DNA from: Escherichia coli
Lineage (GTDB): Bacteria; Pseudomonadota; Gammaproteobacteria; Enterobacterales; Enterobacteriaceae
DNA: 41,974 nucleotides
Assembly (NCBI GenBank): GCA_026712335.1
Contig: GCA_026712335.1_4695.1
Strand: one strand, 5' to 3'
The notes under the pieces were generated by a model. That model was not told the DNA's origin, searched no databases, and saw nothing but the letters and a program-made list of their open reading frames with translations. Both the position numbers and the translations under genes were made by a program. Below, in pieces: positions 1-41,974 of this stretch (position 1 is the first letter of the stretch; the number at the start of each line of letters is the position of its first letter).

Positions 1-1
1 C

Positions 2-271
2 GTCAATAAGAATGCTGGGTGGGCTGAGGTCTGGAAAGGCTCTGCTGGTGGTGGTGTCTCGGTAGGTCTCTCACAGGATGTTCGTTGGAGAACCATCTGG
101 ATTCAGACCAATGGTCGCTGGAACGCCGTTCCTATTGGTGGCAATGCGGCTTACTTCATCTCGTCTGATGGTGGTTGGTTGAAGTTCACAATCTCCAACA
201 ACGGCAGAACTTTCCGTAACGACAAAGACGACCGTTCAGTCCCTACGCGAATCTTAGTTCAAAACCAATAA
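2..271 (+). CDS. 17: Tail fiber protein gp17, 3' fragment (overlap copy of 41511..41780, differs at 2 codons)
   Basis: Near-identical to the end of ORF 39855..41780; C-terminus resembles the T7 gp17 tip (KGSAGGGVSV...); stop TAA 269..271. Confidence 0.8.
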   Translation, partial: VNKNAGWAEVWKGSAGGGVSVGLSQDVRWRTIWIQTNGRWNAVPIGGNAAYFISSDGGWLKFTISNNGRTFRNDKDDRSVPTRILVQNQ

Positions 272-565
272 GGACAACATATAGACCACGGATGGTCTCA
301 ACAATAAGGAGGACACAATGTTGTCTTTAGATTTTAACANTCGCTGGAACGCCGTTCCTATTGGTGACAATGCGGCTTACTTCATCTCGTCTGCTGGTGG
401 TTGGTTGAAGTTCACAATCTCCAACAACGGCAGAACTTTCCGTAACGACAAAGACGACCGTTCAGTCCCTACGCGAATCTTAGTTCAAAACCAATAAGGA
501 CAACATATAGACCACGGATGGTCTCAACAATAAGGAGGACACAATGTTGTCTTTAGATTTTAACA
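115..565. repeat. Direct duplicate 115..339 = 341..565 with single N at 340 (scaffold overlap, probable artifact)
   Basis: Read directly: the two ~225 bp copies differ only at the two tail-fiber SNP positions; N at junction. Confidence 0.9.
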
Positions 566-38100: not shown

Positions 38101-39782
38101 GCTATTATGGCTCTTGATAAGAAGTCTGAAGGTAAAGGTACAATGAAAGGTGAAGTGGAAGCACTTAAGGATGTCGTTAAGATTGNGTGAATGACCTCCG
38201 TGACTTCGATATGAAGCATGTGATGCCAGCATATGACCGCCGTGTTGATGGTGATATTGCTATCATGGGAGGCACAGGTAAGACTACTGCTGAACTCAAG
38301 GACGCTATTATGGCTCTTGATAAGAAGTCTGAAGGTAAAGGTACAATGAAAGGTGAAGTGGAAGCACTTAAGGATGTCGTTAAGATTGTCACTGGTCGTG
38401 CTCGACGCAATCAGGATACTGTAGGTGACACTATGGTCCGTGCTCTGTCCGATATGTCCTTCTTCACGAAGAACGCATATATGGGCTTGCAGAACCTAAC
38501 CGAAATCTCCGGTATGTTGCAGAAGGGTAATATCCGTGCGATGCTTCATGGCATTCCGGTACTGCGTGACTTAGCGTTCCGCAACAAGCCAGTCTCTGGT
38601 AGTGAACTCAAAGAACTCCACTCTATGGTGTTCGGTAAAGAGTTTGATGACTTAGTCCGACCTACTCGTCAAGACATCATTCAGCGACTCCGTGAGTCCA
38701 CTGATACACCTGATGTTGCCGCAAAGGTTGTTGGTTCTATCAAGCACACAACTCAAGAACTGGCGGCTCGCTCACCTCTCACCAAGTTCCTCAATGGTAC
38801 GTCAAACTACCTTCTGGACATGGCCCGACAGGGTGTGATGGGTGATGTGGTAACTCATGCTATCACTGGAAAGGGTGCCAACAAGTGGATTAAAGGTGAC
38901 ATGTTGAAGTCTGCGAGTATCTCTAAGGAACAGTGGGAAGGCATTCAGGCTCTCATCCGTGAGAACGTTACCCGTGGGGAAGATGGTAAGTTTACCTTCA
39001 AGGATAAGAAGGCTCTGGCTAATGACCCTCGTGCTATGGACTTGTGGCGTTTGGCTGACAAGGTTGCTGATGAAACGATGCTTCGACCTCATAAGGTTTC
39101 CTTACAGGATTCCCATGCGTTTGGTGCCACCGCTAAGTTAGTCCTTCAGTTTAAGTCGTTTGTCATCAAGTCGATGAACTCTAAGTTTATCCGCTCCGGT
39201 CACGAAGCCTTTAAGAACCAGCGTGCTATGGACATGGCGCTGACCTATGCAATCTCTGGTGGTATCGCTGGCTCCTACTATGTGGCACAGGCCCACTTGA
39301 AGGCTGCTGGTCTTCCTAAAGAGCAACAGAAGGATTACTTGAAGAAAGCTCTCGACCCGAAGATGATTGCCTACGCTGCGGCCTCCCGAAGTTCACACTT
39401 AGGGTCGCCTCTGAGTATCGCTAACTTCGCTATGGGTGCTGCTGGTTACGACCAAGGTCTTATGGTTCGCTCTACGATTCTACCGAAAGGTGATGACAAG
39501 CGTGAGCGCAACAAGGCGGTGACTTCTCGTGACATGGGTGATTCCATTATGGGCGCTATTGGTGAACAGGTTCCTGCTCTTGGCTTCGCTGGTGCTGCTC
39601 TAGCTACTGGTCGAAATGCTTATGGTGTCCTTACGGCTCCTAACAAACCGACCGAGCGTGAGATGATGACTGGCTTAATGAATGCTCACCGAGAGATGAT
39701 TCCTAACGATCCAATCTCTCAACAGATGCTCATTAAGTTCTATGAGGCCAACGGTGTTCACATTAAGGCTGACAAGAAGTAA
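35134..39782 (+). CDS. 16: Internal virion protein D gp16 with N-terminal lytic transglycosylase domain (ORF split by duplication artifact 37984..38388; about 1481 aa after de-duplication; GTG start)
   Basis: ORFs 35134..38190 and 38187..39782 together are collinear with T7 gp16; SLT motifs ESRF...MQFTKAT...AYNQGEG; C-terminus YEANGV; removing one 203-bp copy restores frame. Confidence 0.95.
37984..38388. repeat. Direct duplicate 37984..38185 = 38187..38388 with N at 38186 inside gp16 (scaffold overlap artifact)
   Basis: Read directly; copies identical; period 203 is not a multiple of 3. Confidence 0.92.
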
Positions 39783-39783
39783 A

Positions 39784-39806
39784 CAATACGACTCACTATT
39801 GGGAAG
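39784..39806 (+). promoter_or_regulatory. Phage RNAP promoter (phi17-like, late)
   Basis: CAATACGACTCACTATT GGGAAG. Confidence 0.8.
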
Positions 39807-39854: not shown

Positions 39855-41780
39855 ATGGCTAACAAAATTTCCACTGTACGTACTTACCCGCTGAACGGTG
39901 CCGTGAACTTCACGATTACCTTTGAGTATTTAGCACGTAAGTTCGTCCAAGTGACACTCATCGGGAAAGACCGTAAAGAGTTGGTTCTCAATCAGGACTA
40001 TCGCTTTACCACTAAGACCCAAATCACAACCTCCCGTGCGTGGACTGCTGCCGATGGTTATCAGATGATTGAGATTCGTCGATTCACTTCTGCAACCGAC
40101 CGTCTGGTTGACTTTGCTGATGGCTCAATCCTTCGTGCGTATGACCTTAACATCTCACAGATTCAGACGCTGCACGTAGCTGAAGAGGCACGAGACCTAA
40201 CTGCGGATACCATTGGTGTCAACAATGATGGTCACTTGGATGCCCGTGGTCGTAAGATTGTGAACCTAGCGTTCGCTACCAGTGACTACGATGCTGTCCC
40301 TCTGAAGCAAGTAAAAGAGCGCGAGTCGTCTGCTTGGAACGCTGTTAACAAGGCCAATGAACACGCTAACCGCTCTAACACTGAGGCTAACCGATCGCGA
40401 GATGAAGCTGACCGTGCAAAACGTGAAGCTGACCGCTCAACCCAACAGGCAGGTGTCTCTACGGCACAGGCGGTTGAGTCCAAGAAGCAAGCTGACCGTT
40501 CCAACTCTGAGGCTAACCGAGCTAAAGGTTATGCTGATAGTATGACCGCAAGTGTAGCTGAGGCCAAGAAGCAAGCTGACCGTTCTAACTCTGAGGCCAA
40601 TCGTGCCCGTGATGAGGCCAATCGTGCTGCCGGAGAAGTGACTAAGGCTGCTGCTGAGGTTGCCAAAGCCGCTGCACACGTTGCTACCGCTGATGGACAT
40701 GCTGACAGAGCCAACACTGAGGCAAACCGCTCCAAGAGTGAAGCTGACCGTGCAAAGACCGAGGCTGACAAGTTAGGGAATATGAATAACTTAGCGGGAA
40801 CCATTAAAGCGGTTAATGGTGAGAACGTTGTTTTTAAGAATGATGTTGTAGCACCCGGACAGATTACTGGTGAAAAGGAAGTAAGGGCTGGCGCAGGTCA
40901 ATCGTTTAGCGTGTTAACAAGGAACTCGTTGCAGCTTGTGAACCAGAACTTCGCTGATAGAAATATGAGGTTCTTCGTATGGGGGAATGACCAAGGACGT
41001 GCAAACGTATTTGAGTTAGGTGGTAGCGGTAATGGGTACTATATGTATATCCAGAAGGCTAACCTTAACGACACATTTTGCCAGATGCGAGTGAATGGAC
41101 ATATGGAGGCTGCTGGTGGGCTTACGGTTGGACAATCAGGTGACTTCACTGGAATCTTACAGACTCGCTCACAGAACCTGCTGATGATTAACTCTGCTCG
41201 TCGACATATTCAAATGAAAACCAGCGATAACTACACCGATGGTTATCTTTACAAAGACCCCGGCGCTGGGGCGTGGAGGCTTAACTTTGGTCAGGCAGCT
41301 AACAGGGAGTATACGTTTGATTCAAATGGTACATTAACATCCAACTCAGGCTGGTACATTCCACCAGATGGTAACTTATACATCACGAAGTATGATTCTT
41401 ACATCGACGGTTGGGTCAACAAACGCCTTGGAGAACATGCCTACAATAAAAGCGAAGTAAACAACCTAGTCAATGGACGGTTAACTCAAGCGCAAGCTGA
41501 TGGTCGATACGTCAATAAGAATGCTGGGTGGGCTGAGGTCTGGAAAGGCTCTGCTGGTGGTGGTGTCTCGGTAGGTCTCTCACAGGATGTTCGTTGGAGA
41601 ACCATCTGGATTCAGACCAATGGTCGCTGGAACGCCGTTCCTATTGGTGACAATGCGGCTTACTTCATCTCGTCTGCTGGTGGTTGGTTGAAGTTCACAA
41701 TCTCCAACAACGGCAGAACTTTCCGTAACGACAAAGACGACCGTTCAGTCCCTACGCGAATCTTAGTTCAAAACCAATAA
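39855..41780 (+). CDS. 17: Tail fiber protein gp17 (641 aa, with expanded central repeat region)
   Basis: N-terminal domain FEYLARKFV.VTLIG.DRK...DGSILRAYDLN..QIQT.HVAEEARDLT.DTIGVNNDGHLDARGR.IVNLA and C-terminal tip match T7 gp17. Confidence 0.96.
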   Translation: MANKISTVRTYPLNGAVNFTITFEYLARKFVQVTLIGKDRKELVLNQDYRFTTKTQITTSRAWTAADGYQMIEIRRFTSATDRLVDFADGSILRAYDLNISQIQTLHVAEEARDLTADTIGVNNDGHLDARGRKIVNLAFATSDYDAVPLKQVKERESSAWNAVNKANEHANRSNTEANRSRDEADRAKREADRSTQQAGVSTAQAVESKKQADRSNSEANRAKGYADSMTASVAEAKKQADRSNSEANRARDEANRAAGEVTKAAAEVAKAAAHVATADGHADRANTEANRSKSEADRAKTEADKLGNMNNLAGTIKAVNGENVVFKNDVVAPGQITGEKEVRAGAGQSFSVLTRNSLQLVNQNFADRNMRFFVWGNDQGRANVFELGGSGNGYYMYIQKANLNDTFCQMRVNGHMEAAGGLTVGQSGDFTGILQTRSQNLLMINSARRHIQMKTSDNYTDGYLYKDPGAGAWRLNFGQAANREYTFDSNGTLTSNSGWYIPPDGNLYITKYDSYIDGWVNKRLGEHAYNKSEVNNLVNGRLTQAQADGRYVNKNAGWAEVWKGSAGGGVSVGLSQDVRWRTIWIQTNGRWNAVPIGDNAAYFISSAGGWLKFTISNNGRTFRNDKDDRSVPTRILVQNQ

Positions 41781-41826
41781 GGACAACATATAGACCACGG
41801 ATGGTCTCAACAATAAGGAGGACACA

Positions 41827-41974
41827 ATGTTGTCTTTAGATTTTAACAACGAGGTAGTGAAGGCTGCACCGATTGTAGGGACAGGCGTAGCCGATGGTGC
41901 TGCCCGTCTGTTCTTCGGCCTGTCACTCAACGAGTGGTTCTATGTAGCCGCAATTGCCTACACAGTGGCTCAAA
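41827..41974 (+). CDS. 17.5: Holin gp17.5, 5' fragment (wrap-around copy of 544..691)
   Basis: Identical to the start of ORF 544..750; window ends inside the gene. Confidence 0.85.
   Translation, partial: MLSLDFNNEVVKAAPIVGTGVADGAARLFFGLSLNEWFYVAAIAYTVAQ

What the first reader, a model, noticed from the sequence alone, without database searches (positions are those of the whole stretch)
40360..40790. Expanded repetitive coiled-coil shaft in the tail fiber
The fiber is 641 aa versus about 553 aa recalled for T7. The extra length is a run of imperfect repeats of the form (S/T)EANR(S/A)(K/R)xEADRAK, visible at DNA level as two ~38-bp near-identical units (40484..40521 and 40566..40603). Such repeats are prone to expansion and contraction by slippage or recombination and may tune fiber length.
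Basis: partly seen in the sequence, partly recalled or inferred. Interest (0 to 1): 0.5.

Follow-up and report, generated by a model that had tools for sequence, protein, structure and literature searches.

The report
Standard Berlinvirus tail-fibre coiled-coil shaft
The repeats are the ordinary heptad pattern of the rod-like coiled-coil shaft of a T7-family phage tail fibre; the shaft is six heptads longer than T7's, but that length is the fixed norm for this phage's genus, not a peculiarity of this genome.

Summary
gp17 (window 39855-41780) is 641 aa against 553 aa in T7. Residues 150-303 form an unbroken heptad array of 22 heptads, with Ala/Val at position a and Ala/Ser at position d. An AlphaFold2 monomer model gives one continuous helix, 151-316. 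The two DNA units exist, but copy 1 is 2 nt off: 40482-40519 matches 40566-40603 at 35/38, 84 nt apart.

- Only 42 of the 88 extra residues (six heptads) lie in the shaft. The rest are in the distal half.
- The 154-aa shaft is not an expansion in this phage. All eight Berlinvirus-type isolates fetched, all 31 listed full-length blastn hits and 26 independent 90% protein clusters have the same length, and most carry different receptor-binding ends.
- Tandem Repeats Finder finds no tandem array.

Repeat-driven change is real but rare. One metagenomic relative lost exactly 21 nt between a perfect 15-nt direct repeat (40592/40613). Phage CICC 80001 lacks another heptad. The near-identical DNA units look like a ~45-nt gene-conversion patch.

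Elongated Berlinvirus-type fibres are already published (Sxt1). This is ordinary and of low interest.

The parts
39784..39806 (+). phage-RNA-polymerase promoter upstream of gene 17 (phi17-type, CAATACGACTCACTATTGGGAAG)
   Evidence: Pattern match. BA14, Yepe2 and FE44 annotate a promoter (phi17 in BA14 and Yepe2) at the equivalent position.
39855..41780 (+). gene 17, tail fibre protein gp17, 641 aa
   Evidence: ORF. Pfam PF03906, E = 7.6e-50. 39% identical to T7 gp17 end to end. P0001 is 99% identical.
39855..40301 (+). N-terminal tail-attachment domain (aa 1-149)
   Evidence: PF03906 covers aa 1-154. Matches T7 gp17 N-terminal chains 7boz/7ey9.
40302..40802 (+). proximal coiled-coil shaft (aa 150-316). 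22 in-phase heptads lie between the DAVP and ADKL anchors (aa 150-303).
   Evidence: Heptad table and period-3.5 z = 20. AF2 gives a single helix 151-316. Shaft is 154 aa vs 112 in T7.
40380..40421 (+). [quoted passage not shown]
   Evidence: DNA family D2, 40357-40433 vs 40693-40769, 74% identity, 336 nt (16 heptads) apart.
40716..40757 (+). second strict TEANRSKSEADRAK block (aa 288-301), at the C-terminal end of the shaft, followed by the family-wide EADKLGN end motif
   Evidence: The EADRAKxEADKL end is conserved in nearly all length classes, T7 included.
40464..40547 (+). 84-nt unit A (aa 204-231, AQAVESKKQADRSNSEANRAKGYADSMT). The near-identical core is 40479-40523.
40548..40631 (+). 84-nt unit B (aa 232-259, ASVAEAKKQADRSNSEANRARDEANRAA). 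The core 40563-40607 is a probable gene-conversion patch copied from unit A.
   Evidence: B core vs A core 39/45, against 26-31/45 to orthologous B cores. B flanks vs orthologous B flanks 24-32/39, against 17-20/39 to A flanks. Synonymous-codon null P = 0.011.
40592..40627 (+). perfect 15-nt direct repeat TGAGGCCAATCGTGC at 40592-40606 and 40613-40627 (21-nt spacing). This is a slippage site for loss of one heptad.
   Evidence: Relative P0030 (locus L010) lacks exactly these 21 nt.
40803..41777 (+). distal half-fibre (aa 317-641). aa ~316-440 is a divergent mosaic patch. aa 541-641 is a T7-type tip domain.
   Evidence: Sliding identity. Match to 4A0T/4A0U, aa 541-641, E = 5e-24 to 7e-24. Beta-rich AF2 model.

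Best explanation
The feature is the proximal rod of the T7-family tail fibre. Residues about 150-316 of gp17 form one long alpha-helix. By homology with T7 gp17 it is inferred to pair as a parallel trimeric coiled coil. Its heptads read g-a-b-c-d-e-f = E-A-(N/D)-R-(S/A)-(K/R/N)-x. That gives a small Ala/Val and Ala/Ser core and E(g)/K,R(e) charges that could form inter-helix salt bridges.

The 'repeats' are this heptad pattern. They are inherited as part of the conserved N-terminal-domain-plus-shaft module of Berlinvirus-type gp17, which is 22 heptads between conserved anchors against 16 in T7. Different receptor-binding distal modules are recombined onto this module right at the end of the shaft.

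At about 0.15 nm rise per residue (textbook coiled-coil value), six extra heptads make the proximal rod about 6 nm longer than T7's. This is inferred, not measured.

The low-complexity heptad DNA does occasionally undergo intragenic recombination: a ~45-nt gene-conversion patch that created the near-identical DNA units, and rare losses of one heptad between adjacent in-phase direct repeats. Even so, the length is stable across the genus.
For: - Gene and domain identity.
- Unbroken heptad phase and composition.
- Single predicted helix 151-316.
- T7's proximal section is a triple-helical coiled coil by AFM, MD and AlphaFold (PMC13485008; bioRxiv 10.1101/2025.10.22.683886).
- Shaft is exactly 154 aa in Q, BA14, Yepe2, BSP161, 285P, FE44, nasanit, S523 and PZJ0206.
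- The same 154 aa occurs in 26 of the measurable 90% clusters, whose total lengths run from 554 to 674 aa.
- 71 phage records cover at least 80% of the shaft DNA. All 31 of these that are listed align ungapped with identical span.
- Homology to BA14, FE44 and the Yersinia phages ends at gene nt 933-951, which is aa 311-317.
- Conversion patch.
- 21-nt deletion between the 15-nt repeats in P0030.
- CICC 80001 lacks EVAKAAA.
Against: - Trimerisation and the coiled-coil geometry were not tested. The AF2 run was a monomer with moderate confidence in the helix (pLDDT about 54-73).
- An all-Ala/Ser core is unusually small for a stable trimeric coiled coil.
- The direction of the conversion (A to B) rests on outgroup parsimony, not on a dated phylogeny.
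- The functional effect of the extra ~6 nm is not shown.
Confidence: 0.85

Rival explanations
1. One reading: the shaft is an actively expanding and contracting repeat tract. Slippage or unequal recombination often changes repeat number and so tunes fibre length, and this genome carries an expanded allele.
For: - In-phase short direct repeats exist: 15 nt at 21-nt spacing, and 22 nt plus 11 nt at 84-nt spacing.
- One relative lost exactly one heptad between such repeats and another lacks a different heptad.
- Across the whole family, shafts range from 112 to at least 183 aa, and about 260 aa in a chimera.
Against: - No tandem array by Tandem Repeats Finder.
- Units are only 61-74% identical outside a 45-nt patch.
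- Every Berlinvirus-type isolate checked has the same 154 aa, despite 80-97% DNA divergence and different distal domains.
- No variant longer than 154 aa was seen among close relatives.
- The shaft here is 100% identical in protein to PZJ0206 up to about aa 260, with only isolated differences after that.
Confidence: 0.1
2. The repeat count is an assembly artefact (collapse or expansion of repeats).
For: The record is a permuted assembly with a 465-nt end overlap, so it is an unpolished contig.
Against: - The repeated units are 38-45 nt at 84-nt spacing, well within single short reads.
- The same length and near-identical sequence occur in independently sequenced phages (PZJ0206 96.9%, BA14 94.7% DNA identity, ungapped).
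- A 99% identical protein, P0001, occurs in another assembly.
Confidence: 0.01
3. The 22-heptad length is a selected 'ruler'. It would be matched to virion geometry (fibres stowed against the capsid) or to the depth of the host surface layer, and is therefore held constant in the genus.
For: - Strict length conservation despite sequence drift and distal-domain swapping.
- Purely helical length classes differ by whole heptads: 112, 119, 147, 154.
- T7 fibres are proposed to use the coiled coil as a torsionally compliant element (PMC13485008).
Against: - Berlinvirus-type shafts function on other virion backbones: Sxt1, a Teetrevirus, and CICC 80001, a Teseptimavirus, with one heptad fewer.
- Constancy is equally explained by simple co-inheritance with the N-terminal domain.
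- Whole-heptad quantisation is required merely to keep the two conserved ends in register.
Confidence: 0.12

Closest known systems
Bacteriophage T7 gp17 tail fibre (Teseptimavirus T7; PDB 4A0T/4A0U tip, 7BOZ/7EY9 N-domain)
   Same: - Same gene position, after gp16 and before the 17.5 holin, behind a phi17-type promoter.
- Same PF03906 N-domain.
- Heptad shaft ending in EADRAxxEADKLxNxNxLAG.
- Homologous tip domain.
   Different: - The shaft is 154 vs 112 aa (22 vs 16 heptads).
- It uses EA(N/D)R(S/A) heptads with an Ala/Ser core, in place of T7's FRNEAEx heptads with aromatic core positions.
- The central shaft sequences are not meaningfully alignable.
- The distal half is about 46 aa longer net.
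Berlinvirus gp17 (BA14, 285P, FE44, BSP161, PZJ0206, Yepe2, Yep-phi, Berlin)
   Same: - Identical shaft length and repeat layout.
- aa 1-315 are about 95-100% identical to BA14 and PZJ0206.
- The same 84-nt unit pair is present.
   Different: - Distal segment aa ~316-440 differs from all of them, at 10-60% identity.
- The Yersinia phages keep a non-converted unit-B core, GHAESASKEA.
Phage Sxt1 / Sekstaphage-1 'extended lateral tail fibre' (Viruses 2024, PMC11680406)
   Same: A Berlinvirus-type gp17 with the same 154-aa shaft (P0012). It is published as longer than the T3 and T7 fibres.
   Different: - That paper attributes the extension to pyramid-domain insertions and a 27-aa insert in the helical linker. 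It does not mention six extra heptads in the proximal coiled coil.
- Unit B there carries the GHADRSNKEA allele.

Membership tests
T7-type tail fibre protein gp17 | N-terminal tail-attachment domain (Pfam PF03906) | tested here: met
   E = 7.6e-50, aa 1-154. phmmer to T7 gp17 chains gives 1.9e-100.
T7-type tail fibre protein gp17 | Gene lies between gp16 (internal virion protein D) and the gp17.5 holin, behind a phage-polymerase promoter | tested here: met
   Upstream ORF 38187-39782 and the downstream ORF start at 41829. Promoter match at 39785. Same order in BA14, Yepe2, 285P and BSP161.
T7-type tail fibre protein gp17 | Alpha-helical heptad-repeat proximal shaft after the N-domain | tested here: met
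   Heptad statistics. AF2 helix 151-316.
T7-type tail fibre protein gp17 | Homotrimeric assembly (parallel three-stranded coiled coil) | not testable with these tools
   Only monomer AF2 is available. Inferred from T7.
T7-type tail fibre protein gp17 | C-terminal tip domain of the T7 gp17 type | tested here: met
   aa 541-641 match 4A0U/4A0T, E = 5.1e-24 and 7.2e-24.
Berlinvirus-type gp17 N-domain + shaft module | 154-aa shaft between the DAVP and A[DE]KL anchors with the same block order | tested here: met
   Identical length in 8 isolates and 26 clusters. Ungapped DNA alignments.
Slippage-prone tandem-repeat (contingency-type) tract | Head-to-tail tandem DNA repeats of high identity | tested here: not met
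   Tandem Repeats Finder returns 0 rows at minimum score 30. Direct-repeat families are 61-74% identical except for a 45-nt patch.
Slippage-prone tandem-repeat (contingency-type) tract | Repeat-number polymorphism among close relatives | tested here: not met
   All 31 listed full-length hits have identical span. Only P0030 (one heptad fewer) and CICC 80001 (one heptad fewer) deviate.

The most novel reading that the evidence does not exclude
Shaft length in T7-family fibres may be a heptad-quantised, selectable trait. Under this reading it acts as a spacer or torsional spring matched to host envelope depth or to fibre stowing. The in-phase short direct repeats (for example the 15-nt pair at 40592/40613) would be built-in slippage sites giving one-heptad steps, and intragenic gene conversion would keep those sites homogeneous.
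Probability: 0.12. Interest if true: 0.35.

Novelty: already known. Interest (0 to 1): 0.12.

Why it matters
It matters little for discovery. The gene, its domain plan and the longer Berlinvirus-type fibre are all already in the databases and the literature.

The practical points are these:
- The shaft ends at aa ~311-317, which is the natural recombination and engineering junction for swapping receptor-binding modules.
- Annotation pipelines can mislabel this coiled coil. One record calls it 'smc: chromosome partition protein'.
- The real peculiarity of this gp17 is the divergent distal segment at aa ~316-440, not the shaft.

Tried and rejected
- Tandem Repeats Finder on the gene found nothing, so 'tandem repeat array' was dropped.
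- My first regex anchors for shaft length failed and were redone. 47 of 122 sequences could not be measured with the strict end motif. They were inspected by eye. Several are also 154-type.
- I tried to map the 42 extra residues to a specific insertion relative to T7. This was rejected because the central shafts of T7 and this phage are not alignable. BLAST simply scatters gaps across them.
- Pfam found no domain in the shaft or the distal half at E <= 0.1.
- The PNAS paper on the T7 gp17 C-terminal domain structure (PMC3386108) is not held.
- The MAFFT DNA alignment for the CICC 80001 deletion was mis-sliced. That deletion is therefore supported at protein level only, plus the 21-nt span difference.
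- Assembly artefact was considered and rejected (see rival explanations).

Full report
**What is there.** The finding lies inside one ORF, window 39855-41780 (+), 641 aa.
- Pfam places the T7 tail-fibre N-terminal domain (PF03906) at aa 1-154, E = 7.6e-50, and nothing else.
- The protein aligns end to end with T7 gp17 (553 aa, from NC_001604) at 39% identity.
- Solved-structure searches hit the T7 gp17 N-domain (7BOZ/7EY9) and the T7 tip domain (4A0T/4A0U, query aa 541-641).
- The gene follows the gp16 homologue and a phage-polymerase promoter (39785). It precedes the holin gene, as in BA14, Yepe2, 285P and BSP161.
- The window as a whole is a Berlinvirus-like genome (nasanit 95%, PZJ0206 96.5%).

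**Checking the observation.** The lengths 641 and 553 aa are right.
- Written in rows of seven from the residue after the conserved DAVP, aa 150-303 is an unbroken heptad array. Column 1 is A/V in 21 of 23 rows, column 4 is A/S in 20 of 23, column 7 is mostly E and column 3 mostly R/K.
- All twelve A[ND]R[SA] motifs fall in one phase. Hydropathy power at period 3.5 is 20 SD above shuffles, against 9.9 for T7's shaft.
- An AlphaFold2 monomer model (33-sequence alignment A1) gives one continuous helix, 151-316, with moderate confidence as expected for a chain that needs partners.
- The two DNA units are real, but copy 1 is mis-registered by 2 nt. 40482-40519 vs 40566-40603 match at 35/38, 84 nt (four heptads) apart.
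- Tandem Repeats Finder sees no tandem array.

**Where the extra length is.** I measured the shaft between two anchors conserved across the family: the end of DAVP and the start of A[DE]KL.
- The shaft is 154 aa here and 112 aa in T7. The difference is exactly 42 aa, or six heptads.
- The other ~46 of the 88 extra residues are insertions in the distal half, for example a ~23-aa helical segment before the tip domain.
- The central parts of the two shafts use different heptad families: EA(N/D)R(S/A) here and FRNEAEx in T7. They cannot be aligned, so the difference is not a simple insertion of repeats into a T7-like shaft.

**Is it an expansion in this phage? No.**
- BA14, Yepe2, BSP161, 285P, FE44, nasanit, S523 and PZJ0206 all have a 154-aa shaft with the same block order.
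- Among the 120 best 90%-identity clusters from 5.8 billion proteins, 26 measurable clusters share 154 aa. Several unmeasured ones do too by inspection. Their total lengths of 554-674 aa show different distal modules.
- In blastn of the shaft DNA, 71 phage records cover at least 80% of it. All 31 listed, including Berlin, Yep-phi, YpP-G and PYPS50, align in one ungapped piece of identical span.
- Megablast homology to BA14, FE44 and the Yersinia phages stops at gene nt 933-951, which is aa 311-317. The shaft end is therefore the mosaic junction where receptor-binding modules are exchanged.
- Other family members have shafts of 112 (T7 and 558-aa T3-length proteins), 119, 124-144 (these contain a non-helical WAxNP...SAKHW insert), 147 and 183 aa, and about 260 aa in a chimeric T7+Berlin shaft, P0040.
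- The purely helical classes differ by whole heptads.

**Do the repeats recombine? Occasionally.**
- P0030, from a metagenome contig (locus L010), has a 147-aa shaft. Its DNA lacks exactly 21 nt, bounded by the perfect 15-nt direct repeat TGAGGCCAATCGTGC that sits at window 40592-40606 and 40613-40627. This is a textbook slippage or short-homology deletion of one heptad.
- CICC 80001 lacks the heptad EVAKAAA, which lies between two similar heptads.
- The near-identical DNA units are best read as a gene-conversion patch. The 45-nt core of unit B is 39-40/45 identical to unit A in this phage and in the BA14-type phages, while the flanks are about 20/39.
- Orthologous B cores in Yepe2, Sxt1, CICC 80001 and PcCB251 are only 26-31/45 identical to this B core. 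Three of them (Yepe2, Sxt1, CICC 80001) are 36-40/45 identical to one another. The B flanks are conserved at 24-32/39.
- The A/B core identity exceeds what identical amino acids would give under this gene's codon usage (39 vs 33.2 +/- 2.4, P = 0.011).
- The outgroups keep a GHADRS.KEA-like B core, so the direction A to B is the parsimonious one.

**Mechanism.**
- Shown: a continuous heptad helix of about 166 residues joins a conserved tail-binding domain to a swappable distal module.
- Inferred from T7: the helix is a parallel trimeric coiled coil. T7's proximal section is a triple-helical, torsionally compliant coiled coil by AFM, MD and AlphaFold, and has not been resolved at high resolution (PMC13485008; preprint).
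- Inferred from geometry: at about 0.15 nm per residue, six extra heptads add about 6 nm to the rod.
- Whether this matters for adsorption is unknown. Sxt1 (a Teetrevirus) and CICC 80001 (a Teseptimavirus) carry Berlinvirus-type shafts, so the length is not strictly tied to one virion backbone.

**Comparison with what is known, and novelty.**
- The protein is 99% identical to a database entry, and its shaft is essentially that of BA14 and PZJ0206.
- A 2024 paper on Sxt1 already describes 'extended' Berlinvirus-type fibres relative to T3 and T7 (PMC11680406). It credits pyramid-domain and linker insertions rather than the proximal coiled coil.
- The six-heptad difference, the conversion patch and the slippage deletion are small refinements, not a new kind of thing.

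**Verdict.** A real but ordinary, already known feature. Interest 0.12.

Noticed in passing
window 1-465 and 41510-41974: The last 465 nt of the window are identical to the first 465 nt. The record is a circularly permuted assembly with an end overlap. The unique genome is 41,509 bp, and the record starts inside the 3' end of gene 17.
   Followed up: partly
window ~40800-41174 (gp17 aa ~316-440): This distal-fibre segment is only 10-60% identical to every phage record. That includes PZJ0206, whose aa 1-315 and aa 441-641 are mostly 85-100% identical in 20-aa windows. It is a mosaic patch, shared only with a 99% identical protein (P0001) from an E. coli assembly contig. It is the truly distinctive part of this gp17 and a likely host-range determinant.
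   Followed up: partly
window ~40787-40805 (gene nt 933-951): DNA homology to BA14, FE44 and about 40 Yersinia phages stops abruptly right after the EADKLGNMN end of the shaft. This marks the recombination junction for distal-module exchange.
   Followed up: partly
P0040 (758 aa), P0070 and P0079 (701-704 aa): P0040 has a chimeric shaft: a T7-type start, then an internal duplication, then a complete Berlinvirus-type shaft, about 260 aa in all. P0070 and P0079 have 183-aa shafts. Much longer shafts than this one therefore exist in the family.
   Followed up: partly
L011 (Sekstaphage-1, Teetrevirus) and L013 (CICC 80001, Teseptimavirus): Phages of other genera carry Berlinvirus-type gp17 shafts, so the N-domain-plus-shaft module moves between genera. 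The CICC 80001 record starts inside gene 17.
   Followed up: partly
MT374859.1 (Yersinia phage vB_YpP_T3), hits H25 and H69: gp17 is annotated there as 'smc: chromosome partition protein'. This is probably a mis-annotation driven by the coiled-coil composition.
   Followed up: no
window 4180, 11362, 12510, 23745, 26291, 27285, 31747, 39785: Eight T7-type phage-polymerase promoter cores (AATACGACTCACTA...) are spread through the window. The last is the phi17 promoter.
   Followed up: no
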